Shown: piece by piece, positions 2,978 to 55,720 of the stretch | How positions within the stretch are numbered: position 1 is the first letter of the stretch | Layout of the letters: each line of letters begins with the position of its first letter | From: a virus | Direction: 5' to 3' (one strand) | DNA length: 64,000 bases | Virus record (IMG/VR): IMGVR_UViG_3300036770_008028 | Coordinates: 32,001-96,000 of that record | Notes under the pieces: model-generated | Databases searched by the model: none | What the model was told of the DNA's origin: nothing | Seen by the model: only the letters and a program-made list of their open reading frames with translations | Translations under genes and position numbers: made by a program

Positions 2978-3667
2978 TTACGATGTGTAGTTTTCTGCGA
3001 TGGCCAGGGCCACGGTCTGTCCAATGGTACCAGATTTGATCTCTGTACCTTCGTCTGTGAAGAAGTTCACAAGATAGCGCACCGGCGGTGTAGAATAGTC
3101 CAGAGCAAACTTGTTGGTGAGCTTTGACACCAGGATGTCTGTGGAGTCACCGTTGAAGATAGCAATGTTCATGTTGCCCTGTGTGAGCGCGCCTGTGGCT
3201 TCGTTGGCCAAGGTGCACACACCCACTTCAAACGCTGTGCCAGTGCCTGCTCCCACAGCTCGGCAAGTGAAGATGTCGCCGGCCGAAGGATTTACACCAG
3301 CGCCAGAAGATACCCAATCTGTGGTGCCCACAGTGGCTATGATGTAGGTGCGTCCTACTACCATATCTTCATCGTTAACGCTTGTAGTGTCAGCTACCAG
3401 ATACTGCTTGCTGCCTTTTTGTGTGATGATGAAACCAGGGGCTTCAGCGGAACCTGGGCCACCAGAGGGCAGGAATACCTGCACCCTAAGCACAGGATTG
3501 GCCGATGTGGCTACGGATCCACCGCCGATGGCATTGGCACCGCCCACTACGCCAATGAACTGGCTAGTGTTCAGTGTTTCTGGATAAACTGGTGACTCCA
3601 GTTGACCCAGCACAGGAAAACCAATGTCTTTGGTTGTGGTTTTTTTGATCTTGAGAGGACGTCCCAT
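2978..3667 (-). CDS. Virion structural protein, possible head decoration (MGRPLKIKK...)
   Basis: Start reassigned to ATG 3667 with TAGGAG SD; the longer track ORF overlaps the upstream gene; lies downstream of the major capsid gene. Confidence 0.75.
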   Translation of the reverse strand: MGRPLKIKKTTTKDIGFPVLGQLESPVYPETLNTSQFIGVVGGANAIGGGSVATSANPVLRVQVFLPSGGPGSAEAPGFIITQKGSKQYLVADTTSVNDEDMVVGRTYIIATVGTTDWVSSGAGVNPSAGDIFTCRAVGAGTGTAFEVGVCTLANEATGALTQGNMNIAIFNGDSTDILVSKLTNKFALDYSTPPVRYLVNFFTDEGTEIKSGTIGQTVALAIAENYTS

Positions 3668-3679
3668 TTGTTTTCTCCT

Positions 3680-3764
3680 ATAAAGAAGTCCGATCGGAGT
3701 TCTAGTCCGTACGCGGTGGGGTTTAATCTCCGCATAAGACACAGATCGTGTCAACAGATATTTA
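3680..3764 (-). promoter_or_regulatory. Late promoter plus structured 5' leader (candidate cis-regulatory RNA)
   Basis: TAAATA at 3759-3764, then hairpins TATGCGG/CCGCGTA and CGGA-CTAGAAC-TCCG just before the SD. Confidence 0.5.
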
Positions 3765-4385: not shown

Positions 4386-4661
4386 TCAGTGGTCAAACCG
4401 ATCACGGTCCTCGGCTTCGCTGTGCGTGATCACTTCCTGGATGAGTTCTTCTGTGGTCCAACCAGAATTTGAAAGCGTAGCAATCGCATCAACAAATAGA
4501 GTGAATACCGCCGCAGTGTAATCAAAATCCACTTCCTGGCCTTCTAGTGCATAGAGTTGTTCCAGTGCCGCACGGGCGCGTTCGGTGCTTTTATTGATGC
4601 TGAATGTGTAGATGGTGCCGTCTTCCAGCACTTCGGTACAGCGATCTGGATCTGTGTTCAT
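4386..4661 (-). CDS. Hypothetical acidic protein
   Basis: 91 aa, ATGA overlap with the HNH gene stop, AAGGA SD. Confidence 0.6.
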   Translation of the reverse strand: MNTDPDRCTEVLEDGTIYTFSINKSTERARAALEQLYALEGQEVDFDYTAAVFTLFVDAIATLSNSGWTTEELIQEVITHSEAEDRDRFDH

Positions 4662-5425
4662 GACGTTCCTTTCAGGGTTCGACAGTTGGTGCCGTGCCAG
4701 CGGGGGTAGGTGTTGACAGCGATCATTTTCTGGCAGTGGGGGCAGAGCTGTTTGGGTTTGACCTTGCCCTTATTGGCTTCAGCACGCCGCGCTTTTTCTT
4801 CGTCGGTCTGTTTACGACCACGTATGCGGTCTCCGATCTTCTGGCGTGTTGATTCTAAAACTTCTACACCCCAACGATTATTCTTTTCTCTAGTCTTGCT
4901 TTTAGACATGTTAGCAAGCCATTCTTCACTGAATGGTGCTCGCTTTTTACCTTTTTTGCTGTTGGTGATTTTTTGTCTTGCTTCTTCCTGCTTGGCTCCA
5001 TTGTTTTCGCCGAGTATGGCTTCTCGTTGGCGCTGTTTGCCCTCTTCGCTGCGAAAGAACTTATCACCATACATTGGATTATTTTCACCTCGAACTTTTT
5101 CACTTTGTAATTTTGAGTATTCTAACTTGATGCTTTCATATACACGAGAGGTAATTTTTGTTTTGTATCTTTTTTGTCCGGGATTGTCAGCTCTCATCAT
5201 ACGGAGAGCATTCAGCATCTTATAATGGTCTTCTCCTGTAGTCATTTTAATCAACAACCAATGGCAGATAAAATGCTCTCGGGGTGTGATAAATGCGATG
5301 TTTTCTTTGTCATCTGTACCACCAAGACTGCGTGGTTTAATATGGTGTCGTTCAAAAGGTGGTTCAAGGACCCTGTCTTTAGCCCGATCTATAATTTGAT
5401 TGTACCATTTGGTGTATTTGTTCAT
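4658..5425 (-). CDS. Free-standing HNH homing endonuclease with NUMOD3 repeats
   Basis: ERHHIKPRSLGGTDDKENIAFITPREHFICH HNH core; GENNPMYG, KKGKKR and RGRKQTDE NUMOD3-like basic repeats; C-terminal CPHC; AT-rich; start set at ATG 5425, 5 nt after TAAATA. Confidence 0.85.
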   Translation of the reverse strand: MNKYTKWYNQIIDRAKDRVLEPPFERHHIKPRSLGGTDDKENIAFITPREHFICHWLLIKMTTGEDHYKMLNALRMMRADNPGQKRYKTKITSRVYESIKLEYSKLQSEKVRGENNPMYGDKFFRSEEGKQRQREAILGENNGAKQEEARQKITNSKKGKKRAPFSEEWLANMSKSKTREKNNRWGVEVLESTRQKIGDRIRGRKQTDEEKARRAEANKGKVKPKQLCPHCQKMIAVNTYPRWHGTNCRTLKGTS

Positions 5426-15924: not shown

Positions 15925-16256
15925 GCGACTTATACACCATATGGGCAGACAAAGAAGGCGATATATCAGACCTTGAATGGGTCAACGGGATGAAAAGTTT
16001 TTTTGATCACTTGATCTCTGAAGGCAAGATGCTGACTTACAGGATCACTCGTTGCAAGATGGGCTTCCGCAGCATACCTGATCTTCCGGAGTGGATGATC
16101 ATCATGGAGTTCCGAGACATGGCACAGATGGATGCCGCATTCCGGAGGGTGGCACCGCTTGAGGGTGAACTAGAATCCAAGCACCGATCATTCAATCAAT
16201 TTGTGGCCGGTAACATACAGCATGCGCTATTCCGAGATTGGCCCGATCGGTTCTAG
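15921..16256 (+). CDS. DUF6614-like small protein
   Basis: YRITRCKMG...IIMEFRDMAQMDAAF...ALFRDWPD pattern; ATGA coupling to the previous gene. Confidence 0.55.
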   Translation: MSDLYTIWADKEGDISDLEWVNGMKSFFDHLISEGKMLTYRITRCKMGFRSIPDLPEWMIIMEFRDMAQMDAAFRRVAPLEGELESKHRSFNQFVAGNIQHALFRDWPDRF

Positions 16257-17498
16257 CCATTCATTCCAGTGCGTGCAGTTTTCTTTCCAGCTATGAGCAG
16301 GATCATACCAATCTAAAAAACCGCGTAGTGCCAAAAGATGGTCGTTGCAAAACACCTGATTTTCTAACTGCGATATAAGTCCCATGAGATCGATCAAGGG
16401 CTCTTGAGAATAACAAGGAGGTACCACAGGCACAGGATATTCTTGCAGTGCCAGCGCTGTGCGTTTCAAGATGTGCGAAGGCACACTTGACAGAGACATG
16501 TAATCTGGAGTATCCAACAAACCAAATCCCATCGGTATGCCATGTTGCCAACACCACTGCATGAGATCTTTAATCGTCTGCACTGTCAATGCCTGGAGAG
16601 TATGATGCACATAGATACAATCAGTGCCGTAAACAGATACAAAGTTCTCTATGTTACGAGATATTTGATCCCAATTACTACCGCGTCTGATATAGTCCTG
16701 GACCCACCCAATACCCTCCAGGCTAAGCACAAAACTCACTGATTGGAAGTGAGAAAACTGCTGCTTTGCCTTGACAAGATCCTGGCTGCCATTGGTAACA
16801 AACAATAGATTGGTTTTGCGAGCGCGATCAGCAGGCAGTGCGCCGAGTATCTGTCTTGTTTCCTGGTCCAGCAAAGGTTCCCCGCCTAGTATTTTCAGAA
16901 ACTTGGGCCGTTGGCGCAGTATGTCACGCAGTAGATGTCGATTGCTGTTGTCTACAAAAATCGCCCTGGCTCGATCAAGATAGCCTGGATCGGTAGACAG
17001 TCTAGACTGCACACAGGCGTGTTCTGTGTTTTTTTTCCAAATTGCATATATTTGGCTGCTGTCCATGGGATTGCACATTGCACAGGCAAAATTGCATAGA
17101 TTTGAGATTTTGATATCGGCCGATATCAATAGATCACTTTGCCAGTCTTGTTTGTTTTTAAAATATGCGGCAAGCCATGTCTGTTGCAGATCGCTGGCAT
17201 TCTTCGTCACTGTGTTGTTGACGATGTTTCTTAAACTGTGATGTCCGCTGTCCTCCTTTTGCCAGCATCTACGACATTCTGGCAATCGCACTCCTTGCGA
17301 TAAATTTTGTCTTAGATACTGAGAATAGTCAGACTGATACCAGTGATCGATATCGTGCTCTCTGAGATTGTATTCTGTCTGTCCTTGATAGTTTGATGCG
17401 CCATGGTCAATTTCACAGCAACAACGAAAAGATCCATCATTGGAATTTCGTAACTGAAACCAAGGCGCTGCACAGAAAGTGTTTGAATTTATATCCAC
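16227..17498 (-). CDS. Radical SAM protein with N-terminal twitch/SPASM-like domain
   Basis: FCAAPW...CCE...CRRC N-terminal cysteines; CNFACAMC; ILGGEP; VTNG; YIRRGSNW; TAAATA 4 nt before the GTG. Confidence 0.88.
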   Translation of the reverse strand: MDINSNTFCAAPWFQLRNSNDGSFRCCCEIDHGASNYQGQTEYNLREHDIDHWYQSDYSQYLRQNLSQGVRLPECRRCWQKEDSGHHSLRNIVNNTVTKNASDLQQTWLAAYFKNKQDWQSDLLISADIKISNLCNFACAMCNPMDSSQIYAIWKKNTEHACVQSRLSTDPGYLDRARAIFVDNSNRHLLRDILRQRPKFLKILGGEPLLDQETRQILGALPADRARKTNLLFVTNGSQDLVKAKQQFSHFQSVSFVLSLEGIGWVQDYIRRGSNWDQISRNIENFVSVYGTDCIYVHHTLQALTVQTIKDLMQWCWQHGIPMGFGLLDTPDYMSLSSVPSHILKRTALALQEYPVPVVPPCYSQEPLIDLMGLISQLENQVFCNDHLLALRGFLDWYDPAHSWKENCTHWNEWLEPIGPISE

Positions 17499-17508
17499 TT
17501 GATATTTA

Positions 17509-17580
17509 AGAACTGCTGCGCAGTTCTATTGATTTCGCTGCGCTCATCAATATTTTTGGCTCCTACGAGCGAAGCGAGTA
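17509..17580. repeat. Three hairpins with GCG(A/C)AGC loops (candidate ssDNA/origin-type element)
   Basis: AGAACT-gctgcgc-AGTTCT 17509-17527; TATTGAT-ttcgctgcgctc-ATCAATA 17527-17552; TAC-gagcgaagcga-GTA 17564-17580. Confidence 0.65.
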
Positions 17581-17968
17581 TACAGTATCATCCAGATGTA
17601 ATGGTCACACTTAGCCCGTTTCCGGGCTAAGAAATGTCTGCGGCATCATCCGAGTGCATCACAGTCACACAGCGTTAGAACTACAAGGTAGTAAAAAAAT
17701 TTTACTGCCTCACGCAGGCGGTTGTCCGGTACCTGCTCATTCCGTCTTATCACAACGGCAACACACAATCCATACGCTATCACAGATTGCATGCCTGGAG
17801 TTTTTCTCTCCTCTTTTTGCCTTTTTATCCTTTTCCAACAACCAAACGTCGGGTCTTAGAGACGTCATCATCCTTGCGGGCAGTGGTTGAGTGCTCGCTG
17901 GTACGGCGAGGCTTCCATCTCTGTGAACCGAGTTCCAGATCTAGAGCACACGAAGTTGGCCTGTGCTA
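17581..17968 (-). ncRNA. Candidate large structured non-coding RNA (~390 nt)
   Basis: Longest gene-free stretch in the window; about ten stems, GAAA/GCAA tetraloops and G-U pairs that work only on the minus strand; possible pseudoknot. Confidence 0.6.
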
Positions 17969-18406
17969 GCCGTTAGTACCTAGTTTGCCTTTGATGTGTG
18001 AGCCATGCACTCGAACCTGTATGTGACCATTGTAGTATAGGTCTGATTCAAGTACTCTACGGGCGAATTGTTCTCGAGCCTCTATGTAACTGCATTCAGC
18101 CTTGCTGCGGCAGTAATACAATATCTCGCGTGTGAAATTTTCTGTGCCTAACTGCTCTATGTCTTTTGTGAGTTCGGGACTGGAACCGTAATAGGTCTGC
18201 CAGTCTGATTCGATCTTGCCTCTGATTTTTTTCCGTCTTTTTTTACCGTTTTTAAGTCGCTCTGTTTTATAGGTGGTTTTGGAAAATTTTGAAAGTTTTT
18301 TGCCAATGTACTGCCTGCCGGTGAGTTTGTTAGTGATAACATATACAAAACCAGCATAATGTTCGGGTATTTCGGTGATTACCTGTGATTCGTAAATCCA
18401 TGTCAC
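17966..18406 (-). CDS. Compact GIY-YIG endonuclease-like protein
   Basis: GFVYVITNKLTGRQYIGKK (GIY/YIG), YYGSS, FTREIL, conserved E (YIEARE) and N (YYNG); basic insertion KNGKKRRKKIRGK. Confidence 0.85.
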   Translation of the reverse strand: MTWIYESQVITEIPEHYAGFVYVITNKLTGRQYIGKKLSKFSKTTYKTERLKNGKKRRKKIRGKIESDWQTYYGSSPELTKDIEQLGTENFTREILYYCRSKAECSYIEAREQFARRVLESDLYYNGHIQVRVHGSHIKGKLGTNG

Positions 18407-18413
18407 ACCTTAG

Positions 18414-20177
18414 TTATGCCATGTCTATATCTGTGTTGTAAGAAGTAAATCCACCTTCTTTGACCACACGCAGTATATTCTCTACACGTCCGGCCAACTC
18501 GTCTCTGTGGCTAACCAACCAGATGGATTTGTGTCGGTCACGGCTCATCTTCTTCAGCAAGGCCAATGAATTTTCCACACCTTGTGTGTCCATGCCCGAA
18601 TCAACCAACTCGTCAATGAATAACACATTGATCGGAGAGTAAAGACTTTCCCATACATCACGAAATGCCCACGACATAGATAGGATCAATCTGTTGCGTT
18701 CTCCGCGGCTGAGATTGTCAAAGTCTAGATCTCGGCCCAGTTCTGTGATCTCCACATTCAAGTCGTTCTGGAATATGACCTGATGCGGCAATCCAATCCT
18801 GTCTAGATAGTGTGTGAGTCGCTGGTTGAGGTAACTCAAATTCTGTTCAATGATCTTCTTGCGAACAAATGAATCTTTGTTGGTAAGCAGTTTGAGTAAG
18901 AAATCCTGGTGATCAAATACTCTGGTGAGTTCGTTCACTGTATCGTAAGTGACTTCCTGCAAGGCCTGTCCACGCATGTCGTCGATCTGTTCAGTGTAAG
19001 GATCAGTCTCAGCAGATCTATTGGCCAGATCTTTCTTCAACCCATCTAGACTGTTCTTGTGATTGAGGGCCTGTTCAAGATCATCGTAGAACACCGTGGG
19101 GGCTGTGCCCATCTCGCCAAGGTCGTCGATCTCGTTGAGATGCTCCGCTCGTTGTGTTTCATTAGCTAGGAGTTGTAAAGCGATTTCCTGCAGATTCTTT
19201 TGTTTTTCTTCCAAGATCTCGTCTTGTTTTGAATCATGCAGTTCTTGTCCGCAAGCATGACAACGATGTTCTTTTAGTGCATCAATATCTCGTTTGAGTT
19301 TGGCACTGTCTTTTTCCAGTTTAGAATTGTCTTGATCAATCTGACGTATCCATCGTTGATGTTCGTCAATTTGTTTCTTTTGAATATAATAGGATTCTAG
19401 ATCACGATGTGCCTGCACTTCGGATTCAATATCGATATGCTCTAACGCCTGTATAGCTGTTTCAAAACTGGCACAATCTTCCGCTTGTTTTTTTGTCCAT
19501 AAATCTCGTCGTTTCTCAAGGCTGATTATCTGTTCTTCGATCCTTTTATTGGCTTCTTGTACAGCACGGATTCGCATCTCTTCCTGAGAGATTGCGTCCT
19601 TGGTAGAACGGTTCAGTTCTTTGATGCGTTCTGCACGTTCGCTGAGTAGAGTGATGCCCAGCAGTTGTTCGATAATGGCACGCTGATCGTTGGCCTTGAG
19701 GCTGAGAAACGGTTCTGTATAAGTGTTCAAAGCTAACACGTGCTTGAACATGTCATGGGTCATGCCCAAGATTGACTCTATGGCATCCTGGGTTTCTCTT
19801 GAATCGCCTTGAGCATCGTCAGTGGCTTGTTGTTCCTCCGAGTTGACATACAATCGGAGTACATTAGGCTTGCGACCTCGCTCTACGCGGTAGTCTTGCC
19901 CATTGACAGAAAAGTCCAACGACACCAACATGTTTTTGCCATTGGTCTTGTTGATTAGATTGTCTTTGCGTATATTGGTCAGTGCCTGTCCGTACAAGGT
20001 ATAGCTGAGTGCATTGATTATGGTAGTCTTGCCTGTGCCGTTACGACTACCATCACCGCCTAAATCTAGGTTCTCTCCTAGCACCAAGGTCAAGTCTCGC
20101 CGATCAAAGTTGATGGCCTGCGTGGCATTGCCCACGCTCATGAAATTTCGGACTGTAAGATTTTTGATCTGGATCAT
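18414..20177 (-). CDS. gp46: Recombination endonuclease ATPase subunit (T4 gp46, Rad50/SbcC-like)
   Basis: NFMSVG, Walker A NGTGKTT, coiled coils with CHAC zinc hook, signature LSRGE, Walker B LFIDE, VSH. Confidence 0.95.
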   Translation of the reverse strand: MIQIKNLTVRNFMSVGNATQAINFDRRDLTLVLGENLDLGGDGSRNGTGKTTIINALSYTLYGQALTNIRKDNLINKTNGKNMLVSLDFSVNGQDYRVERGRKPNVLRLYVNSEEQQATDDAQGDSRETQDAIESILGMTHDMFKHVLALNTYTEPFLSLKANDQRAIIEQLLGITLLSERAERIKELNRSTKDAISQEEMRIRAVQEANKRIEEQIISLEKRRDLWTKKQAEDCASFETAIQALEHIDIESEVQAHRDLESYYIQKKQIDEHQRWIRQIDQDNSKLEKDSAKLKRDIDALKEHRCHACGQELHDSKQDEILEEKQKNLQEIALQLLANETQRAEHLNEIDDLGEMGTAPTVFYDDLEQALNHKNSLDGLKKDLANRSAETDPYTEQIDDMRGQALQEVTYDTVNELTRVFDHQDFLLKLLTNKDSFVRKKIIEQNLSYLNQRLTHYLDRIGLPHQVIFQNDLNVEITELGRDLDFDNLSRGERNRLILSMSWAFRDVWESLYSPINVLFIDELVDSGMDTQGVENSLALLKKMSRDRHKSIWLVSHRDELAGRVENILRVVKEGGFTSYNTDIDMA

Positions 20178-21190
20178 AGAGCCTGATAAATCTGTAACAG
20201 CAATTTGGGATCGTAGAATTCCGACTCGATCTTGGTGATCTGATCCGTCACAATCTGATCCACGCTTTCAAACCGTACATCGCCTGGCGCCATGTCTTCT
20301 TCAAGAGCAGATCGTTTGTTAGGGATCAAGGCCACCTCTCTCAGGCCGTATTGTTTGATGTAGGTTTCTTTGATGTAGTTTGCTTCTTCATATGAAATCT
20401 CGATGTCCAGTTGCACACGGACATGCTGATTGGGACGCAATATTTGATCAGCATGGTCCATGACATGGCTGAGATTCCAGACATTGTAGAGAGGTTGATC
20501 TGGCCAGGCATGATATTCTGGTTCAGACCCCCACTCCAAGATCATGCATCCACGATTGGTATCGCCAGCATCGGCGAAGTTGTGCGGGAATGCATTGCCG
20601 ATGTAGTTGATGTTGTGTTTGTGCTGACGGAGATGGAAGTGACCTGAGAATACTCGATCGTAGTGGCCAAAGTGTTCCACGGCAATCTCGCCATGATCCG
20701 GCATCTCTACCATAGCATTCATCTTGAAATGCGGCAGTTCGAAATGTCCAAACATGTATCGGGCCGACATTTTTGATATGCGTTTATGATCGTCGCCTAC
20801 CAACCAAGGTGCTATGATTACATCGCCCTCTTGGAACCAATCGTTCACAATCACGATGTTGGGTATGTGTCGTGCCCATTCTGTGCTGTAAATATCTCTT
20901 CGATCGCGATAGTAGAGATCATGATTGCCCGGGATGAAATAGAATCGATCAAATGCTGCGGACAGTTTTTCTAGTGCGCGCAGGCTGTACTGCAAGGTCT
21001 GCATGTTGATCGACGCACGATGGTGGCTCCAGTCACCAAGGAACAGGCCAGTTTCACAGCCTTGTGCCCGGGCCGTGGCGATAAACCAGTCCACGAATCG
21101 TTCACAGTCTTGATTGTGAAGGAGGCTGTTGGATTTCAAGCCAAAATGTATGTCGGTGAATACTGCAGCCTTACGGAATAAGTTAGCCAT
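20174..21190 (-). CDS. gp47: Recombination endonuclease nuclease subunit (T4 gp47, Mre11/SbcD-like)
   Basis: Metallophosphoesterase motifs DIHFG, LGD, GNHD, GHFE, SGHFH. Confidence 0.95.
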   Translation of the reverse strand: MANLFRKAAVFTDIHFGLKSNSLLHNQDCERFVDWFIATARAQGCETGLFLGDWSHHRASINMQTLQYSLRALEKLSAAFDRFYFIPGNHDLYYRDRRDIYSTEWARHIPNIVIVNDWFQEGDVIIAPWLVGDDHKRISKMSARYMFGHFELPHFKMNAMVEMPDHGEIAVEHFGHYDRVFSGHFHLRQHKHNINYIGNAFPHNFADAGDTNRGCMILEWGSEPEYHAWPDQPLYNVWNLSHVMDHADQILRPNQHVRVQLDIEISYEEANYIKETYIKQYGLREVALIPNKRSALEEDMAPGDVRFESVDQIVTDQITKIESEFYDPKLLLQIYQAL

Positions 21191-21203
21191 TCAGTGAGTT
21201 TAA

Positions 21204-22091
21204 CTAATCTTCTGCCACTACGTCAACTGATTTGGGTTGCGTTACATTCGAGTATTGGCGTGTCCAGGAAGGATTGAGTCCGTTCATTTCCAGGATATCG
21301 TCTCTGATGTTTTGATTCTTTTTCTCGATATTCAGTACCCGTGTGAATGAGTTCGTGATGGCCGCGGTGTAATAGGCAAAGGGGTTCTGGCTTTTTGACT
21401 CGTCAAATTGTAACCCGATCTGTGACAATTGTAACAGGGCCTGGCCCCGCATCTCTTCGTTGTAGGTATATCCACGCCAGTTTGAGCGAGTGGCATAGCG
21501 TTCGCACAGTTTCATGAACATCTCGGCCAATTTACGCGTCATTTTGCCATGGTCTCGAGAGTAGGTGCCGGTCCCAAGATCGCCCAGCCAATGGCTCTTG
21601 CCTACCAGATAAGGCACACGATGGTCGGTGATACGGTAGTGGAAGAACGGAGGAAAGTTAACACGCACATGCACAGGGTCCAGCACAGGTTCGTCGACGA
21701 GATCAGCCAAGGGATCATCCCCGGTCATGTCATCAAACTCCAGTATATCTTCGATTTTTTTCTTCTTGGCCGCGACCTTGGGCGGCTTTTTGGCTGCCAT
21801 GGGTATGTGTTCCCAGGTCATCACCCGGAACACCAACTCGTTATTGTCTATCTTTTTTTCGTTGACAACTTCGCCGGTCTCACGCCGGATCCTATCGGCG
21901 CGGTTCCTGCGGGCCTCGGCGATGGTACGTTGATTGATCTTGCTGGCCGACGGCAATATGATATCATACTGGTGATCCGTAACGGCATTGAGAAAACTAC
22001 AGTAGGTATTTTTGCTAAGATGTATTTCTTTTAAGAGATCTCTGTTGTTGAGATAGTTGACCTTTGCAGGCGGTTTGATAGGTAAGGACAA
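21204..22091 (-). CDS. gp55: Late-transcription sigma factor (T4 gp55)
   Basis: NYLNNRDLL, NWRGYTYNEEM, FDESKSQNPFAYYT; start set at TTG 22091 with GGGAG SD. Confidence 0.9.
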   Translation of the reverse strand: MSLPIKPPAKVNYLNNRDLLKEIHLSKNTYCSFLNAVTDHQYDIILPSASKINQRTIAEARRNRADRIRRETGEVVNEKKIDNNELVFRVMTWEHIPMAAKKPPKVAAKKKKIEDILEFDDMTGDDPLADLVDEPVLDPVHVRVNFPPFFHYRITDHRVPYLVGKSHWLGDLGTGTYSRDHGKMTRKLAEMFMKLCERYATRSNWRGYTYNEEMRGQALLQLSQIGLQFDESKSQNPFAYYTAAITNSFTRVLNIEKKNQNIRDDILEMNGLNPSWTRQYSNVTQPKSVDVVAED

Positions 22092-22115
22092 GGTATTTCT
22101 CCCAATAGTGTACTT

Positions 22116-22143
22116 ATTATACAGCATTTGTCAGTGTTGTCAA
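22116..22143 (-). promoter_or_regulatory. Sigma70 consensus promoter for the gp55-47-46 operon
   Basis: TTGACA-N16-TATAAT with exact hexamers. Confidence 0.8.
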
Positions 22144-34171: not shown

Positions 34172-37100
34172 ATGGCAAGACGCAGAACAGTAGACCTACT
34201 ACCTGAGATTTTCCGCACCGAAACCAACCGGCAGTTCCTGTCGGCCACCTTGGATCAACTCGCACAGGAACCCAACCTCAAGCGCACACAAGGTTATGTA
34301 GGTCGCCGAGTCGGGCCTGGAGTCAACCCTGCCGATAACTACGTAGCAGAATCTACGGCCGCACGAGCAGATTACCAGTTAGAACCAGGAGTGGTATTCT
34401 TCAGACCAGAGACCACCACGGCCACGGATGCTATCACGTATCCTGGCATGATCGATGCCTTGGCTTTGCAAGGTGCCAACACCGACCGCCAAGATCGATT
34501 GTTCCAGAGCCAGTACTATTCCTGGGATCCATTCTGCGATCTAGACAAGTTTACCAATTATAGCCAATACTACTGGTTGCCAGAAGGCCCGGATTCAGTA
34601 GATGTAAGTTCGGCATTCTATCCTACCACCGATTCGTGGGAAGTCACACGCAGCGGGGGTGCTTACCAGTTCAGCGACGAAGCCGGCAACAATCCTGTGA
34701 TCACTTTGGTACGTGGCGGCAACTATACCTTTGATGTGAGCCAGACTGGAAATCCGTTCTGGATACAGGCTGCTCCGGGCATCGCTGGCACCATGCCAGG
34801 TACGCCCAACATCTCTAGCCGCAATGTGCTAGGAGTGATCAACAACGGCGAAGATCTTGGTACAGTGACGTTTAATGTACCTCTCAAGACCGCACAAAAT
34901 TTCTTCTATGGACTTACCGATATCGGCACGGTGGATCTGATCACCGATATTAAATTCAACGAAATCAATAACATCTACGTCAGTGAATTCCTGCAGCGAT
35001 ATCCAGATGGTATCGACGGTATCACCAATCTTAACAATCGCACAGTGGTATTCACCAACCGAATTGAAAATGCACAGGACGGTGGATGGCAGATAACCAC
35101 ACAGTTTGATCCTCTGTTGAGAGAACAACCTCCTGAGATTATTACCAATGGTCTTCCTGGAAGTTTTGACACTACTTTGTTTGATCAGACCACGGACATC
35201 GCCACACAAGCACAACGCTATAGTATATGGCAGATACAGTATATCTTGGACAATGATGGTCAGCCTTTCATGCGCCTCGGCAGCATCCGTCCGGTGCCTA
35301 ATCTCAACAAGTTCAGCATAGCATTTGGTACTGAATTCAGCAGCACCCAGTGGTACAAAAATGCCGAGGGATTTTTTGAGCGCATACCGTTGCTTACCGC
35401 GGTGCTGGATACCTTGTATTATCAAGATGGCACAGATCCCACTATCTTTGGTCGTATACAACTGGTAGATCAGAGCGAAAACAATCCAATCAACATCGAC
35501 GATATCATTGGGGCTAAAAATTATATATCGCCCAATGGTGTGGTATTCACCAATGGACTCAAAGTACAGTTCCGCGGGCTAACCGAACCTGCACGTTATC
35601 AGGATCTTGAGTACTATGTGGAAGGTGTGGGTACGGGTCCCGGAATCGACAGTCGTGTGGGATTTATCGACGGTGAAGCCTATTTCGGTGCTTATCATAC
35701 TGTGGGCACGCAGAAGGTCACTGGTGCCACACAGAGCACTGAATTTTTCCAACAGTACATCTATGACACTGTGGAAGAAAGCCTGCTTAATATCGGCGCC
35801 GGAACTCCAGCCGGGGCTCCTTTGCCTCCAGATGGAATATTGAATGCCACGGTGGGCAACGGTATCAAATTGTTGCCAGTATCTAGTTTTGTCACTCCTG
35901 AAACGTATACTCGCAGCCTAAGTACACCTTACGACAGCACTCCTTACGATGCTACACCCTATGATGACACACTGAATGCACCTATCATTCCAGACTACAT
36001 CACTATAAATCGTGCCAGCCGAGATCTCAACCCCTGGACACGCAGCAATAGATGGTTCCACAGAGACGTGATCCAGGCTACGGCAGATTACAACAATCAG
36101 ATACCAATTTTTGACAATGATGCCCGCGGCAAGCGCCCCATCATTGAATTCCGCAACAATCTCAAACTGTTTAATTTTGGAACACAGGCCAAGATCCCAG
36201 TCAACATAGTGGACTTCCAAGAAACAGATGCACTCAGCAACATCAATGGCCAATTGGGCTACGGTGTTGACGGGTACAATTTCATCGACGGATCTTTGGT
36301 GATATTCGCTGCGGATATCGATCCAGATGTGCGCAATCGCATCTATCGGGTGGAGTTCATCGATCCTGATGGCACAGATGCATCGCCCAGGATCATCAAT
36401 CTCGAAACAGTTTTCCAAGGGGAAGCCTTGGTCAATCAAACAGTGGTCAGTCTCAGTGGAACCACCCAACAAGGACTGAGTTACTGGTTTGATGGCAGCA
36501 ACTGGATTCCGACACAGCAGAAAACCGGAGTGAATCAGGCTCCCTTGTTTGATGTCTATGATATCACTGGGCACAGTCTTAGCGATCAAACGGTGTACCC
36601 CAGCAGCACATTTGCCGGTAGTCGATTGTTCGGTTATGCAGTGGGCGGCACACAGAGATCCGACGAAGTGTTGGGATTCGCTCTGCAGTTCCTCAACATC
36701 AACAACGTGGGCGACATCGTCTTTGAGAATTATTTCTACACAGACACATTCCTCTACGTGAGGAATTCTGTGAGCCAGACAGAACCCATCAGCATAGGCT
36801 TCGTGCGCCAGTATGTGGATCGTACATCATTCTCAGATCTCATCGGATGGCAACGAGCAGCAGCAGAAAATCGCAGCCGCCAGGTGTTTAGATTCATATA
36901 TGACGATACGCCGTTGGTTTTGGATATACCAGTGGATGAAACTGCGGTGTATGCTCCGCTGCAGGTATTCCAAGGAACCACTTTCCTTGACCCCGATCAG
37001 TATACCTATGTGATTTCGGACAATGCCACAGTGATCACCATCACAGATCCTCCAGAGACTGGCACCATCATCGAAGTACAGGTGATCAGCAATGAGACCA

Positions 37101-40100
37101 GTGGTGTGGGTTTTTACCAGGTGCCATTGAATCTAGAAAACAATCCTCTCAATGAAAATTCAGAGAGGTTCACACTGGGCACTATCCGCACGCATTATCA
37201 GAGTATCGGACAGAATCTCCGAGACATCCGCGGTGACATCGACGGTCCCAACAATTCTCGAGACCTGGGCAATATCTTGCCCTACGGCGATAACATCGTG
37301 CAACACAGTTCGCCATTGGCCTTGTCCGGAGTATTCCTCCGTCGTCAGCAGTATGAAGTGATCTCGGCCATAGAGTTCAACTCGAGAGAATATCAAAAAT
37401 ACAAAGCCCTGTTGATTGATCTGGCCGGCAAAGGTGATTTTGTCAACAATACTCCCACACAGGTACTAGACACAGTGATGACCGAGATCGCTCTCACACG
37501 CAGCGATGTCAGTCCTTTCTATTGGTCAGACATGGTACCTTTTGGACAGAACTACACAGAGACCGTGTACACATTCAGTGCGATCAGTACTTCTACCTTT
37601 GACACCCGACAGACCTATGATTATACCCAGAGCAACTTCCAGGGTCTCAATGTCTATCTCAATGGGCGCATACTCACACGAGGTTACGATTACGAAACAG
37701 GAATAGACAGCCCCACTGTGACTATCACGGTGCCATTGACAGTGGGAGATGTGATCTCGATCCGCGAATTTGCTGTCACATACGGCAACTTTGTACCCAA
37801 TACCCCTACCAAGATGGGTTTGTACGGTGCCTATCGTCCACAGAAATTCCTAGACGAAACCTATGTCACACCCACGGAAGTGATACAGGGTCATGACGGA
37901 TCCATCACTGTGGCCTTTGGCGATTATCGCGATGATGTGTTACTGGAATTTGAAACACGCATATTCAACAACATCAAGATAACGAGTTCGATTCCTTTGA
38001 CCCAGGATGAAATCATTCCCGGACAATGGAGACAGACCGATTACACGCTCCAAGAGATAACAAATATTCTCGCGCCTGACTTTTTGAGTTGGGTTGGCTG
38101 GAACAAACTTGACTACACCGCCCAGACCTATGTTAGCGACAACGGATTCACTTGGAACTACAGTCAGAGCGCCAACAAGATCGATCAACAACCATTGCTG
38201 GGAGCCTGGAGAGGCATATACAACTATTACTATGACACCACTACTCCCAACACCACACCGTGGGAAATGCTGGGATTTTCTGAAAAGCCAAATTGGTGGG
38301 AAGACTACTACGGCCCTGCACCTTATACTTCGGGCAACTTGGTGCTGTGGGAAGATCTGGCCAATGGTCTGGTGAGAGATCCTGATGGTGAATATGTGAT
38401 ACCCCTATTCCGCCGGCCGGACTTGCTGCAAGTTATCCCGTCGGGATCAGAAGGTGCGCTGTTACCACCCATTGACGTGGCCACCGGCAACTATGACGCG
38501 ACCAGTTTCCGTAGATCCTGGGTGTTTGGTGACGATGGTCCGGTAGAGAATGTGTGGCGCACATCATCCGCCTGGCCATTCGCTGTGATGCGGCTATTGG
38601 CCTTGACCAAACCAGCCAAATTTTTCAGTCTGTTTGCGGACCGAGATCGCTATGTGTTTGATCCGAATCTGGATCAGTATCTCTGGGACGGCCGTTATAG
38701 ACTAGATGCCAAGCAGTTGACTCCTCTCTACGGCGAAGCCATAGACGGCCAGGCCACAAGCAAAGCAAGTTACATCAATTGGATAATTGATTATAATCGC
38801 CAGCGCGGCACCAACAGCACAGTGAGTCTTACCGAAACTCTCAACAACATTGGGGTACGGCTGTGCTGGCGCGTGGGCGGTTTTACTGACAAACGCTATC
38901 TCAAACTTTTCACAGAGCGCTCGACACCCAACAGCCTCAACACCAGCCTGCTGCTGCCGGACGAGAGTTATCAGATCTTGCTATACAAGAATCAACCATT
39001 CCGCCAGAGTGTGTTCAGCAGTGTTGTGGTACAGAGCACGGACACAGGGTGGCAGGTGTACGGATACAGCACCACACGTCCTTATTTCAATGTGCTGGCC
39101 AGCAGGCCCAATGGTAATTTTACCGTGATAACTGCCGGCGGTCAGACCGTGAGGGTAGCGTTGGACCACAGTGATGACGTGGTACAGGTGCCCTACGGAT
39201 ATACCTTTACCTCACTCACGGCCGTGTGTGATTTCCTTTACAGTTACGGTCTGCTGTTAGAACAGCAGGGATTCGTGTTCGACACACGTGAAAATGGTTA
39301 TATCATGAACTGGCTGCAGATGGCCCAGGAATTTTTGTATTGGGCTAATCAAGGCTGGGCTCCTGGATCGATCATCAACCTCAATCCAGGAGCCACAAGA
39401 GTATCTATCTCACAACCTTTCAGTGTGGTGGACAGCCTGGCTGAATTGCGACCAGAAAATCTCATTCTGAATCAAAATCGTCAACCATTACCGTCCGGCA
39501 ATCTCGTGATAGAACGCCTGGAAAACAAATTCCAGGTCACCAGTCTGACCAGTGATACCATAAATTTCCTCAATCTCAACTTCACAGCCTTTGAACATCT
39601 GGTCATCATTGACAACGTCACTGTGTTTGCTGATCTCATATATGAGCCCGTGACTGGTGCACGCCAGAGCCGTATCTTGGTATCCGGTGCCATCTCCGGC
39701 GACTGGAACGGCACAGTAGATGCGCCAGGTTTTGTGCTCAACGAAGACAACATACAGGAATGGCGACCAAATCAGCAGTACAGCAAGGGCGAGATCGTGT
39801 TGTTCAAGAACGAATACTGGTCCGCTTCTGAGATCATACAGCCTTCTCAAGAATTTGATTACACACTCTGGGTCAAGAGTGACTATGACCAGATACAGAC
39901 TGGCCTCCTGCCCAATGCTGCCAATGCTTCTGACCAATTGGCATCTGCGTATTCCATCTATGATGCGGCCCTGGATCAAGAAGTGGATCTGTTCAGTTTT
40001 GGATTGATTGGATTCCGTCCGAGAGAGTACATGCAGGCCCTGAATCTCGACGATGTCAGCCAAGTAGGATTGTACCAGCAGTTCCTAGGCAGCAAAGGCA

Positions 40101-43100
40101 CACTGCGCAGCGCAGAAATTTTCAGTCTGGCCGATCTGGGCAAAGAAATCGCGCAGTATGATATTGATGAATACTGGGCCATCCAGCGCAGCCAGTACGG
40201 CGCTACTGCCAATCGTAATTACATAGAACTACAACTCAATGCCGCTTTGCTCAAGAGCGATCCCAGTCTGGTGCAGGTTGTACAACCCCAACAGGTCTCG
40301 CAGGCCGACCAGGCAATTTTATTGCAAAACATCTGGAAAAGCAGTGCACCGTTGAACAGCACTGATATATTCCCTACCACGCTGGTAGCAGCACGTGATG
40401 CATCTTTGCCGTCGGCTGGCTATGTCAATCTTGAAGATGTAAACTTTACCACGTTTGATCTTGACACACTCACTGATATATTGAGCAGGATCGGCAGCAT
40501 CGAACAATTGGCCGTGGGCAGCACTATCTGGGTAGCCAAAAGCAACGCCTACGATTGGAATGTGTATCGAGCCGAGCGAGTTCCTGGAAATATCATCACA
40601 GTCAGTGACAATCTCGATGGCCTTGCTCTCGTGGAGTTCAATCGCCAGCACGGATTGAACACTGGAAATCAACTGGTCATCAGATTCTTCGACGAAGAAA
40701 TTGACGGTGCATATCGCGTGCGCGGTGTCCCCAGCCTTACCAGCCTGTTGATTGATTACCAGTTTGTAGGTGCTCAGACCACAGCTACTGGCCAAGGACT
40801 GGGATTCACTCTGCAGACTGCTCGAGTCGCACAAGCCAGTGACATAGTGGGATTGTCCTACAGCAAATTACTTGTACCAGGCAGCCTTACTTGGGTCGAC
40901 GACATCGGTATCGGCCGCTGGGCCGTGATAGAAAAAACCAATCCGTTTACTCCAGCAGACCAGGTAGATCCTGAACTTCCTGTGGAGAATTCTCGATTTG
41001 GCGCCAGCCTCACACAAGGCTTCCAGAATCTGGCAGCCATGGTTGGCGCACCGGGCTACGCCGGAGATGACAGTGCTCTGTCCGGAGCCAAAGGTGCGGT
41101 CTATACCTATGTCAAGATCGACACTGGTCGTTATGCACAGAACATAATCCTGTTGCTAGAAACTGAAGAAGCTCAAGGATTTGGCAATGCCATGGACATG
41201 GGCGACCAGACCTGGGCCGTGATAGGCGCATCAGCCAGTTGGAGCGGACGCGGTTATGCCGTGATTATATTCAATCCTCCCACCAGCAATGCATTCACTC
41301 AGCATCAGATCTTGCTGAGAGACACAGATGTGCAGGCCGGCGACGAGTTTGGCTACAGCGTGACTATCAGCCAAAATGAACGTTGGCTCTATGTGGGTGC
41401 ACCGGGCAACAACAGAGTTTTCGCCTATGGTCGTGTGGACGTACAAGAACAAAGCGTGCGATATGTCACCGACGGGGAAACCGGTGCCTTTAATTACAAC
41501 AATTCTATCACAGTAGCTGATGGTAGTCAGTTGGTAGTGGTACTCAATAATGTGGTACAGATCCTCAATACCGATTTCACGATAGAAAGTGGCAACGTTG
41601 TTTTCCCAGCGCCACCCCTCACGGGACTACCACTGATAATCACACGTCGCACCACACTGACTCCAGTGGGAGACGGAATAGAAGATACCTATGATCTCAG
41701 TGAGTTATATTCTGCTGATAATATCTATAGTTTTGCGGTCTATCTAGACAATGTGATACAGCGTCCTTACCAAGACTATACTTTCGACAGCAATACCAAA
41801 GAATTGGTATTTGCAGACCCGCCGGCAAATACCTCGCAGATTTCCATCAGGGCCACTACCTGGTGGCGTCCAGTCGCCGCACTCACTGATGCTGGGGTAG
41901 TCAATGGTGCGAGATTTGGTAACAGTGTCAGCACCACTACAGATGGCCGACAGGTCCTGATCGGAGCACCGTTCCAAGGACAAGCCGACACAGTGTCTGT
42001 GGCAGCAGGATCTTTTTCGATCGGCCTCGATTATCAGATTGAAACAGTGGGCACCACAGATTTTACCTTGATCGGCGCTGCTTCCAACACTGTGGGACTG
42101 GTTTTCACAGCCACAGGAACAGGCACCGGTAACGGCACAGCAGTACGCTATCAGCGACAAGGTTGTACCTATGTGTTTGATCGCTCAGTGGAAAGATTCC
42201 AGATAACCAATGCTTCACAGACTACGTACACCACTGTCGAGAGCTTGACCAATCCGGGTGCTCCGATCAATGTAAAACTCAACGGATCTTTCCTCACAAA
42301 CTCCACAGGCAATCCCAGCGGAGGATTCTCTATCACAGGTGCCAACACCGTGGACATTTCAGTGGATCTTGCTGTGGGAGACATCCTGGAGATAGAAACC
42401 AATCAATTTACTCTATTGCAGGTCATCGAGGACAGCGCACCATTCGAATCGGCCCGCTACGGCACAGTAGTGGATCAATGTATCAATGACTGTAGTCTGT
42501 ATGTCGCTGCGCCTTATGATGGTAGCGTGCTGCCTGAGGCCGGACATGTGCAGTTCTTGCAGAATCAGAGCAGAGTCTATGGCACGACCACTTCTCGTCG
42601 GGCCAATGCTACACTGACTCCGGGAGAATACCTGCGCGTCAATAATACCTATCTGGCAGTGAGCACACCTGCTACCTGGAGTTCTCTGTCAGCGTATGCG
42701 GCTGGAACTTTCGTGCTAGACGGTACAGATCTGTTCCGCGCTGTCATTGCTGTACCGGTAGGCACAGCGATCACCGATCTTGATCACTGGTTACCTACAA
42801 ATTGGGCTGCTGTTCTGTCTCAAGACATCAATGATAGCGGCATCCCCAACGTGTCAGCCAGCCTCACTGACAGCGATGTAGAATTTGAAGGTGATGGAGA
42901 TACCACTGAATTCTCTGTGGGCACAGCCTACTCTGCGGCAGATTCATACACAACTTTGGTTTATGTTGACAATGTGATACAAGCTTCGCCTGGTGACTAT
43001 GTCTACGACAACAATGATGAGACTGTGACATTCTCGACGGCACCCAATCGTGGTTCTACTGTCAGAGTCATAGCTTCGAGACTGATCATATCCGTGATCA

Positions 43101-46100
43101 ACGATGCCGCAGCAATTCCGTTGAGCAAACTCGCAGTGTTACCAGCATCCGATGCCGGCGGTATCGCCTTGTTTGATGATCTCGATTTTGAAACTTATGC
43201 AAGCCAGCAGATTATCCAGAGTCCGGTACCTCAGGCCTATGCGCACTTTGGTGCCGCAGTGTTCATCAGCGATAGCGTGGTTGATCTGGTTGTGGGTGCA
43301 CCGCAGGCCACGGCCTTCAACCCCACTACTTTTGACAATGGTACCACGATATTTGATGCTGCCAGCACCAACTTCTTGGATCCGGTGTCCGAGAGTGGTG
43401 CTGTCTATACGTTTGAGCTGCTGCCCGCAGCCAATGCATCTGTGACCAACCCTGCACAGTGGATATTCGGTCAGCAGTTGTACGATCCGTTGGTAGGCCC
43501 GTTGGACCAGTTTGGTACCGCAGTAGATTACACCACTGGTGTGCTCCTGGTAGGTGCACCAGGAGAGGATGCCGGGGACAGCAATGCCAACTACGGTACA
43601 ATAATAGAATTTAACAATCCTGACCGTCAACCGGCTTGGTCGATCAAGAGACTGCAACAGCCGGTGGTCGATATCGATCTCATGAACACAGTGTTCATGT
43701 ATGATCTCAACACTTCTGGTACCAAACAATATTTTGATTTCTTTGATCCTTTGCAGGGCAAGATCCTGGGCGCAGTACGGCAGAATCTTGATTACATCGG
43801 CGCAGTGGATCCAGCAGCCTACAACGTGGGCGCATTGAACAACTATGGCAATCGATGGGGACAGGATCGTGTGGGTCAAGTCTGGTGGGACACTAACCGT
43901 GCCAGATTCATCGATCCCAATCAAGACGACATAACCTATGCCAGCCGCAGATGGGGACAGCTTTTCCCAGGATCCAGCGTAGAAATATACCAATGGGTCA
44001 GCAGTTCGGTACCTCCTGCACAGTACACAGGCCCAGGAATACCCAAGTACACCGACAGTTATGTGATCACGTCCAACATCAATGAACAAGGTGTATTTGG
44101 AACCACATACTTCTTCTGGGTCAGTGGTATCCGCACTGTGGATCGCACTGCCCGCAAGACCTTGAGCATCGATACGCTCGCACGCTACATCGAGAATCCT
44201 CGCAGCAGCGGTATCGCTTACATCGCTCCCATGAACTCTAGCACTGTGGCCATCTACAATGGTCTAGAATACATCTCTGCGCAAGACACAGTGATACATG
44301 TAGAATACGATCAAACCCCCAATGATGCTGTGGTGCACGTGGAATACCAGTTGGTGGCTCAGGATCGCGGCGACTCATTCTTGACCGACGGGTTGTATCG
44401 CAAACTGCAAGACAGTTTCTGCGGCGTAGATCTAGTGGGAAATCCTGTGCCAGATCCCAGACTGGCACCCAGCGAGCTCTATGGCGTACAGTTCCGTCCT
44501 CGCCAGAGCATGTTTGCCAACAGGTTCTTGGCCTTGGAAAACTATCTAGTAGAAGTCAATCGAGTGATGGCCCAGTACCCCTTGGCAGAAAGTCGCAAGT
44601 TTCCTTTGTTGCTGAGCGAGGATCCAGAGCCAACACCGGGATCTGGCGCATGGAACAAGCGTGTGGCCGACCTGGCAGAACTCAGTTACCAAGATTTGCA
44701 AGCAGTGCCGGTGGGATATCTCTATCTTGTTGGCAATGACAGTGATAACAATGGTCTATGGACCATATACGAAGTACAGTCTGGGACTGTACCCGGAAGC
44801 CGTGTATTGGGGCTGATACGGGTGCAAAGTTATGATACCAAACTTTACTGGAAGTACATCAACTGGTATCAGGCAGATTACAATCCTCTCACAGTGATCA
44901 CGGCCGAAGTCGAGAATTTTGCTGACCTAGCCACTCTCACCCTGCCTGCCGGAAGCACAGTCAAGGTACTGGATAACGCCGCGGGCAAATTTGAAATCTA
45001 TAGACTTGACGCAGATAATTGGGTGCGCGTGGCTCTGCAGGACGGAACCATGGAGATCCTGCCGCAGATATGGGACTACAGCCTGGGACGATTTGGGTTT
45101 GACGTAGAAGTGTTTGATGCACAATACTTCGATCAGGAGCCCGTGACAGAGACACGCAGGATCATCCAGAGCATCAATCAAGAAATATTCATCGACGATC
45201 TTGAAATCGAGCGTAACCGTCTCTTGATCCTGATGTTCAACTTCATCCTGAATGAACAGATCGCACCGATATGGTTGACCAAGACCAGCCTCATCGATGT
45301 GAATCACACTGTGCGACGCCTGGAACCATTCCAGATCTATCGACAAGACAATCAAGACTTTGTGCTGAATTACATACAAGAAGTCAAACCCTATCATACC
45401 CAGATCAGAGAATTCAATCTAATCTACAGTGGTGACGATGTATGGGATGGTACAGTCACAGATTTTGACGTGCCTGCCTATTACAACACCACAGAGCGTA
45501 TGTTTGTGAGTCCGGTGTTGGACGATACCGGAACACTGAGCACCACATCTAGCACACCCAGCACCAGTGCAATTTGGCAGACCTTGCCTTGGAGCCAGTG
45601 GTATCAGAATTATCTCTTGAGCATAGCGTCAGTCACAGTGATCGATGGAGGATCTGGTTACACTGTTCCGCCCGAAGTGATAGTGACCGGAGAAGCCGAG
45701 CGTCCAGCCATCATGCAAGCACGAATCAACACCGCGGGCGCAGTGGTCGGAATCGACGTGATCGATCCTGGCCTAGGATACCTGACCACTGCGCTGATTT
45801 CTTTTGATGGAGGCAACGGTACCGGAGCCCGAGCAGTGGCAGTGATGCAGAACCAATTGGTGCGTGATTTCGCTGTGACGATCAGGTATGATCGATATGA
45901 GTATCAGTCCACGATCCGCGAATGGCAACCCAACGAAAACTATGACAATGGCACACAGGTGCGCTATCTAGACCGTGTTTGGGCAGCCAGCAGCGATGAC
46001 AGCACCGGAGTACAGAGTGCTACATTTGATCCAGATCAGTGGACACTGGTCAATGCTGCCACACTGAGTGGTGCAGATCGCACCATGGGATTCTACGCAC

Positions 46101-55102: not shown

Positions 55103-55720
55103 ATGCCCGCAAAACTTTTCTCTCAAATTTTTTCTCAAGATGAGATCAAACAGATAATAGACTACTATGCCACGCAACCGGTAATGGCACAGGACGAATG
55201 GTCCATCAACAAAGGTCTAGAATATTTCATACCAGGTAGTTTTATCGAAAAACTTTGCGGCCCAAAAATAACGGCAGTACTGGGTCCTCATGAATTTGCT
55301 ACTGGTGCCTATAAAGAATGTATCAAACCATATCCATTGCATGTGGACACCCATGTTGCTCATGATGAACTGAAAACCGTGACCAATTTTTCTGATCGTA
55401 AGATTCATGATCGGGCTCTATTGATACCATTGGTTCAAGGAGATTTTTTTAGAACAGTAATTTTTGATTGTGTATCATCCGAGAATGATTTTGATGATGA
55501 TATTGTTAATTGGATAGGACAACCGAATCATTTGCAGATCGAAGATTTCTCCCATTGTGTCAGAGACTTTAATCGGCACATCCAGTATCTGCCAGTGGAC
55601 TTAGATTATAAGTGGTCACTCGGAGACATGATAATGTGGAATCGAGATCAATTACACATCAGCACAGATTTTACAAGGTCGACTCAAACTAAACGATTCT
55701 TGATATTTTTCGTAGCATGA
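55103..55720 (+). CDS. 2OG-Fe(II) oxygenase-like protein
   Basis: LHVD (HxD), distal QLHIS, C-terminal KRFL; AT-rich. Confidence 0.55.
   Translation: MPAKLFSQIFSQDEIKQIIDYYATQPVMAQDEWSINKGLEYFIPGSFIEKLCGPKITAVLGPHEFATGAYKECIKPYPLHVDTHVAHDELKTVTNFSDRKIHDRALLIPLVQGDFFRTVIFDCVSSENDFDDDIVNWIGQPNHLQIEDFSHCVRDFNRHIQYLPVDLDYKWSLGDMIMWNRDQLHISTDFTRSTQTKRFLIFFVA

What the first reader, a model, noticed from the sequence alone, without database searches (positions are those of the whole stretch)
17581..18406. Compact GIY-YIG nuclease immediately followed by a ~390-nt structured non-coding RNA: candidate RNA-protein system
Seen in sequence: the longest gene-free gap in this dense window starts at the GIY-YIG stop codon and is tiled with stems on the minus strand. 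These include AGCACA/TGTGCT (17945-17967); CTCGC/GCGAG (17894-17910); CAACCA/TGGTTG (17839-17889) enclosing CC-GCAA-GG and GACGTC/GACGTT; GGAG/CTCC; a 14-bp stem (17761-17794) whose G-U pairs only work on the minus strand; CCGT/ACGG; GCAGG/CCTGC enclosing CGG-ACAA-CCG (17714-17736); a stem at 17686-17710; and CTTAGCCCG-GAAA-CGGGCTAAG (17610-17631). ATAGCGT at the loop of the 14-bp stem is complementary to a downstream ACGCTGT (possible pseudoknot). The 146-aa protein is essentially a bare catalytic domain, without the long DNA-binding tail of Seg-type homing enzymes, but has a very basic insertion (KNGKKRRKKIRGK). Inference: the RNA is co-transcribed and could bind the nuclease as a scaffold or guide, or act as a replication primer RNA. 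I could not match it to tmRNA, RNase P, group I/II introns or omega-RNA.
Basis: partly seen in the sequence, partly recalled or inferred. Interest (0 to 1): 0.88.

Follow-up and report, generated by a model that had tools for sequence, protein, structure and literature searches.

The report
Knotted phage RNA, likely origin primer
The gap behind a small nuclease gene of this uncultured giant T4-like freshwater phage encodes a real, roughly 400-base knotted RNA whose first third is already catalogued; it is not the nuclease's dedicated partner, and my best but unproven reading is that it grips the DNA it was copied from to help start DNA replication.

Summary
The RNA is real. Conservation runs about 17585-17980, with strong covariation and four pseudoknots. 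The nuclease-partner idea is not supported: close relatives of the RNA sit behind an unrelated PD-(D/E)XK nuclease (at least 5 swaps on the tree) or in tRNA-integrated bacterial islands with no GIY-YIG nearby, and cultured phages carry the gene without the RNA. The tail holds two 7-nt boxes, identical in 67/67 aligned loci yet changing at least 23 times. Box 1 sits in a hairpin loop, and no third complement exists. This scan noted that much on other genomes. Added here: rare mismatches lean one way (box 1 G/box 2 A in 6 viral lineages, reverse in 0; 2 reverse cases in metagenomes), as expected if box 1 pairs with the template strand of box 2. DNA-type GNA mini-hairpins follow, and the islands encode a T4-like clamp loader. 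Best guess (0.4): a ColE1-RNAII-like R-loop/primer origin RNA. No transcript data were obtained.

The parts
17585..17980 (-). Full-length structured RNA (extended Polynucleobacter-1), about 395 nt; ends inferred from conservation, not mapped
   Evidence: nhmmer hits over about 410 nt in most related loci; covariation
17836..17971 (-). Catalogued 5' domain, Rfam RF01718
   Evidence: 100.1 bits, E 1.8e-20
17900..17980 (-). Pseudoknot 17976-17980 with loop 17900-17904, whose 5' strand lies in the nuclease's last codons; a second small knot 17969-17971 with 17958-17960
   Evidence: 69% and 99% paired; the first is a 6-bp match in the bacterial copies
17671..17794 (-). Conserved core: long G-U-rich stem whose loop 17774-17778 pairs with 17671-17675; 17752-17756 pairs with 17721-17725
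   Evidence: 98.7% paired each, with compensatory changes
17645..17651 (-). Box 1 (GGAUGAU) in a 9-nt loop closed by a C-G pair; proposed reader strand
   Evidence: closing pair in 64/67
17610..17631 (-). Conserved hairpin between the boxes
   Evidence: 94.6% paired
17587..17593 (-). Box 2, identical to box 1, with no conserved flanking stem; its template strand is the proposed target
17510..17580 (.). Three C-GNA-G mini-hairpins of the DNA type. The strict GAGCG-N-AGCGA word occurs only twice in the 157-kb contig, here, in inverted orientation
   Evidence: mini-hairpin background PMC13037366
17966..18406 (-). 146-aa SegE-type GIY-YIG nuclease (phrog_447), interchangeable in this slot with a PDDEXK_15 nuclease
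18414..22127 (-). Upstream same-strand genes: gp46-like ATPase, gp47-like nuclease, late sigma factor (gp55-like)
   Evidence: PHROGs 77, 100, 12791/234

Best explanation
A cis-acting, origin-type RNA. It is transcribed at the end of the sigma-gp47-gp46-nuclease operon (inferred) and folds into a four-pseudoknot body (supported by covariation) that presents box 1 in a loop. As polymerase passes box 2, about 55 nt downstream, the loop pairs with the template strand there (inferred from the exact identity of the boxes and the direction of mismatches). This nucleates a persistent R-loop, as the rG/dC contact does in ColE1 RNA II. The displaced strand then folds its GNA mini-hairpins as loading sites for helicase or primase (inferred). 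The nuclease is a neighbouring, replaceable enzyme, probably for branched DNA. It may cut at this structure but is not guided by the RNA. The tRNA-integrated islands would be satellite-like elements carrying their own copy.
For: Box identity is exactly 7 nt with sharp edges in 67/67 loci, and no complementary third site co-varies. At least 23 word changes on a 75-row tree. Box 1 is in a loop; box 2 is unstructured. Position-1 mismatch box 1 G/box 2 A (an rG-dT wobble): 13 real stretches in 6 lineages, against 0 for the reverse in viral contigs, p = 0.03. Internal position 5 was never mismatched. One bacterial copy also shows G/A (L230). The hairpin word lies within 150 nt of box 2 in 87/116 loci against 1 control. 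ColE1 has GGGGGG exactly twice before its origin and the same hairpin word about 135 nt after it (mechanism in PMC4412123). Single copy in two complete genomes. The next gene is convergent in 76 of 101 loci. The islands have att repeats of 30 bp or more, integrases and a gp44-like clamp loader (E 3e-22).
Against: No transcript, R-loop or nascent-strand data. Two real reverse mismatches in metagenome contigs (L407, L408) and one at position 7 (L410); pooled 7:2 is not significant (p = 0.18). Some bacterial copies mismatch A/T at the box ends. A divergent class shows internal C/T mismatches. A 7-bp hybrid is short. No RNase HI was found in five phage genomes, so a host enzyme or another route is needed. 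GC skew follows gene strand and gives no origin signal. No plasmid hit. Four pseudoknots and an invariant core seem more than a primer needs. An earlier agent (e1-5370389) judged a relative not primer-like.
Confidence: 0.4

Rival explanations
1. A ribozyme, or a catalytic complex with a protein not identified here, uses box 1 as an internal guide to cut, join or modify the strand complementary to box 2 (DNA template or antisense RNA).
For: Four pseudoknots and an invariant core. The box identity and mismatch lean fit equally well.
Against: No match to any catalytic Rfam family even at E 10. No joined, excised or circular form was observed. In bacteria and 25 of 101 phage loci there is no obvious convergent transcript.
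Confidence: 0.2
2. Both boxes are binding sites on the RNA for an unidentified dimeric protein; the RNA is a scaffold or regulator, for example of late transcription or packaging.
For: The module GUGAC...box is duplicated. Box positions 1 and 5 are nearly always purines and position 6 is always A, which simple pairing does not require. The reverse mismatches are allowed under this view.
Against: Exact identity through at least 23 changes would need a co-evolving reader. Of 16 island proteins tested, only the clamp-loader ATPase matched the phage genomes. The boxes lie in different structural contexts.
Confidence: 0.2
3. One reading: the RNA is the cognate scaffold or guide of the GIY-YIG nuclease.
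For: All 75 scoreable GIY-YIG loci of this clade have the RNA (67 adjacent, 8 after an inserted ORF), and 66 of 71 RNA-first loci have the gene. The gene end overlaps the RNA. The protein has a basic hairpin.
Against: The nuclease type swaps at least 5 times on the RNA tree with the box word unchanged. No GIY-YIG in PDDEXK loci or beside the island copies. 546 phage records hold the gene and none matches the RNA. The basic insertion is present in RNA-less homologues. Synteny explains the linkage.
Confidence: 0.08
4. Not a functional RNA: a single-stranded DNA origin, or a 3' stabiliser or terminator between convergent genes.
For: DNA-type mini-hairpins downstream, convergent neighbours, and no transcript evidence.
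Against: GNRA and UUCG loops, abundant G-U pairs and multiple pseudoknots in the body. It persists in islands with a different gene layout.
Confidence: 0.1

Closest known systems
Polynucleobacter-1 RNA motif (Rfam RF01718; Weinberg et al. 2010, PMC2864571)
   Same: The 5' 136 nt match the full model at 100 bits. The paper's supplement already places it downstream of GOS11034/PSSM2_218-like genes, function unknown.
   Different: The Rfam model covers about a third of the RNA. The pseudoknots, twin boxes, DNA hairpins, nuclease swapping and island context are not in the passages I read.
ColE1 RNA II primer (Masukata and Tomizawa 1990, as reviewed in PMC4412123 and PMC5043065)
   Same: Long structured transcript, a short upstream word repeated downstream, and the same hairpin word after it.
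   Different: No sequence similarity over the RNA and no plasmid hit. The word is variable rather than a G run, and the spacing is about 55 nt rather than about 245. No antisense RNA I is known. Function untested.
T4 oriF/oriG R-loop origins
   Same: T4-like phage, and a transcript proposed to form an R-loop.
   Different: Those use a promoter plus an unwinding element, with no ornate RNA described in the review read.
OMEGA/HEARO RNA-nuclease systems (IscB, IsrB, TnpB)
   Same: A large structured RNA beside a compact nuclease.
   Different: No Rfam hit, no long guide, and the nuclease is replaceable by an unrelated fold.
I-TevI and Seg-type GIY-YIG homing endonucleases
   Same: Catalytic fold (Z 8.7) and invariant Y22, Y33, G35, E109, N126.
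   Different: No DNA-binding tail; single copy and highly conserved like a core gene. By my recollection of I-TevI, the position of its Arg27 seems to hold an invariant SDW; not verified by alignment.

Membership tests
Polynucleobacter-1 RNA (RF01718) | Score above the gathering cut-off over the full model | tested here: met
   100.1 against 37 bits, positions 1-141
Polynucleobacter-1 RNA (RF01718) | Downstream of a PSSM2_218-like phage gene | tested here: inconclusive
   The upstream gene has homologues in many cyanophage records, but I did not check that it is PSSM2_218 itself
RNA-guided or RNA-scaffolded nuclease (OMEGA-like) | Obligate pairing of the RNA with one nuclease family | tested here: not met
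RNA-guided or RNA-scaffolded nuclease (OMEGA-like) | Variable guide of about 15 nt or more in a conserved scaffold | tested here: not met
   The alignments show only hairpin inserts and the 7-nt boxes
RNA-guided or RNA-scaffolded nuclease (OMEGA-like) | Protein-RNA binding and RNA-dependent cleavage | not testable with these tools
   needs biochemistry
ColE1-type RNA II origin | Upstream RNA word identical to a downstream non-template word | tested here: met
   67/67; ColE1 comparison
ColE1-type RNA II origin | Pairing direction: RNA word to template strand | tested here: inconclusive
   6:0 lineages in viral contigs, 2 reverse cases in metagenomes
ColE1-type RNA II origin | Single-strand loading hairpins downstream | tested here: inconclusive
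   The motif is present in 87/116 loci; its function is untested and it could serve as a terminator
ColE1-type RNA II origin | Homology to RNA I/RNA II families | tested here: not met
   No such Rfam hit; no plasmid hit
ColE1-type RNA II origin | Persistent hybrid and primed DNA synthesis | not testable with these tools
   needs R-loop and nascent-strand mapping
GIY-YIG superfamily | Fold and motif residues | tested here: met
tmRNA, RNase P, group I/II introns | Covariance-model or ARAGORN match | tested here: not met

The most novel reading that the evidence does not exclude
A family of ornate RNAs, shared by jumbo T4-like phages and satellite-like bacterial islands, that read their own DNA through a re-codable 7-nt loop to open or catalytically process a replication origin. 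The variable word would give each element self-specificity.
Probability: 0.3. Interest if true: 0.85.

Novelty: new variant of a known kind. Interest (0 to 1): 0.6.

Why it matters
A motif catalogued in 2010 without a function turns out to be a third of a multi-pseudoknot RNA that is widespread in uncultured freshwater jumbo phages. The twin boxes give a sharp genetic test: mutate one box, then re-match the other. Cultured Polynucleobacter and Limnohabitans strains carry the island version, so the test can be done without isolating the phage. If the origin reading holds, it shows how these phages start replication and how island elements may exploit them. The result also removes a likely false lead for an RNA-guided GIY-YIG nuclease.

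Tried and rejected
A third complementary site for the boxes: none in the RNA or within 1 kb. GC and AT skew in four genomes: tracks gene strand, uninformative. The RNA lies roughly 5-10 kb from a divergent strand switch in all four, but synteny confounds this. Boxes as sites for the island's small tyrosine recombinase: complete phages lack a homologue. 5' cis-regulation of the next gene: it is usually convergent and of 28 families. Sigma-70 promoters and terminators: at chance level. Endonuclease VII, RNase HI and PDDEXK_15 were not found in the complete GIY-YIG genomes; the first and last searches had no positive control, so absence is not shown. Sequence search of PDB was uninformative. Atlas searches left two island proteins unnamed. 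Four of the 17 G/A hits and one of the 3 A/G hits were chance matches and were discarded. My regex-based box counts select for identity, so I rely on the alignment count; the tree rows were also picked for identity. No complex prediction was run, as that tool does not take RNA partners.

Full report
Setting. The window lies on a 157-kb virus contig, 44% complete. It is T4-like, with portal, late sigma, gp47-like and gp46-like genes; complete relatives are about 345-360 kb. The ORF at 17966-18406 (-) follows gp46 after 7 nt and is followed by the window's longest gene-free gap.

The RNA is real and partly known. Positions 17836-17971 match Rfam Polynucleobacter-1 at 100 bits. Weinberg et al. 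2010 list it with unknown function, from 16 examples, mostly downstream of a cyanophage-like gene (PMC2864571). In loci fetched by the protein, conservation continues for about 410 nt. An 82-pair structure is 87% paired in 30 relatives, with two-sided changes in 57 pairs; no shuffle reached this and slid controls give 33-43%. The structure was partly drawn from these sequences, so the size of that contrast is inflated, but mutual information on 67 loci picks the same pairs. G-U pairs and GNRA/UUCG loops mark the minus strand as RNA. At least three other phage classes and a bacterial class share the 3' layout. No transcript could be checked.

The nuclease is a neighbour, not a partner. Within this clade the linkage is tight: 75 of 75 scoreable gene loci have the RNA (67 adjacent, 8 after an inserted ORF), and 66 of 71 RNA-first loci have the gene. 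But the slot after gp46 can hold a PDDEXK_15 nuclease instead. None of 80 such loci has the GIY-YIG nearby, and 18 distinct ones carry the same RNA classes. On the class-1 RNA tree the nuclease changes at least 5 times, and neighbours on the tree keep the same box word, for example L245 in the window's own clade (FastTree, rows limited to class 1). In Polynucleobacter, Limnohabitans and Oxalobacteraceae the RNA lies between a DUF6641 gene and a small tyrosine recombinase. It is patchy there: 2 of 151 genomes sampled from that family. Conversely, 546 phage records hold the gene and none matches the RNA; three examined homologues keep the basic insertion. The protein folds as a GIY-YIG. I infer a structure-specific nuclease for recombination or replication intermediates, interchangeable with a resolvase-like enzyme; endonuclease VII was not found in three complete genomes, without a positive control.

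The twin boxes. Positions 17645-17651 and 17587-17593 are identical in 67 of 67 aligned loci, while the flanking letters differ invariably or nearly so. The word changes at least 23 times on the tree. No third site is complementary. Box 1 is a loop closed by C-G; box 2 has no conserved stem. If box 1 pairs with the template strand of box 2, then G/A (a wobble) should be tolerated and A/G should not. In viral contigs G/A at position 1 gave 17 stretches, 13 real, in 6 lineages; A/G gave none; position 5 gave none either way. The much larger metagenome collection gave 2 real A/G cases, and I could not run the forward count there. One A/G case occurs at position 7. The lean is therefore suggestive (p = 0.03 viral only, 0.18 pooled) and not absolute. 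A divergent class has looser twins, including C/T mismatches that do not fit.

What follows the boxes. Three covarying hairpins with C-GNA-G loops and almost no G-T pairs lie at 17510-17580. Such mini-hairpins are far more stable as DNA and occur at the G4 origin, at ssiA and in N4 promoters (PMC13037366). The word occurs within 150 nt of box 2 in 87 of 116 loci, and in strict form only twice in this contig. ColE1 has the same word about 135 nt after its origin and a six-G run exactly twice before it. The rG-to-template-dC contact is essential for its persistent hybrid (PMC4412123). The bacterial islands are 9-19 kb, bounded by att repeats at tRNA-Phe or tRNA-Lys, and encode integrases and a gp44-like clamp-loader ATPase. 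That suggests satellite-like elements tied to T4-type replication, which is inference.

Verdict. Shown: a large, multiply knotted RNA of the Polynucleobacter-1 family, independent of the GIY-YIG, with self-matching boxes and DNA-type hairpins downstream. Inferred (0.4): it captures its own template to form an R-loop origin. A box-guided ribozyme (0.2) and a protein-read scaffold (0.2) remain open; a cognate nuclease-RNA complex is unlikely (0.08). I had the extended RNA and twin boxes before consulting earlier notes. Those notes describe the same on other genomes, and one prompted my search for bacterial relatives. I did not see the mismatch-direction test, the ColE1 parallel or the clamp-loader islands in the excerpts shown. 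Interest 0.6; new variant of a known kind.

Noticed in passing
window 3665-3753 (-): Rfam freshwater-2 RNA (RF02980, 68 bits), ending at a start codon; a second catalogued RNA in this window.
   Followed up: no
L382:2111-12928, L382/L383 to 32185 of the joined stretch, L389:2300-11566: Two tandem islands at tRNA-Phe in Polynucleobacter sp. MWH-HuK1 and one at tRNA-Lys in Limnohabitans sp. DCL3, each with the RNA, two tyrosine recombinases, DUF6641 and a 220-aa clamp-loader-like ATPase; candidate satellites or anti-phage elements.
   Followed up: partly
L252, L263, L264, L305 (about 4500-5100): A further large structured RNA class behind the PDDEXK_15 gene, with weak or no match to my class-1, class-2 and bacterial profiles, looser twin words and the same downstream GNA hairpins.
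   Followed up: partly
L031, L044, L047 (from about 3440): A third RNA class with a different 5' domain but the same 3' twin-box module (word ACAUGAA).
   Followed up: partly
window 17966-18406: PHROGs and several GenBank records label this family 'NAD synthetase'; the fold and Pfam match say GIY-YIG, so the label looks like a propagated mis-annotation.
   Followed up: partly
L008, L010, L018, L019, L033, L039, L043: ORFs of up to about 1 kb are inserted between the nuclease and the RNA, and others between gp46 and the nuclease; the operon end is an insertion hot spot.
   Followed up: no
window 34172-48478 (+): A 4768-aa ORF among baseplate or tail-like genes.
   Followed up: no
window 16227-17498 and 55717-63213: One radical SAM gene directly after the element, and a run of 430-570-aa ORFs later in the window that look like further modification enzymes (not scanned).
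   Followed up: no
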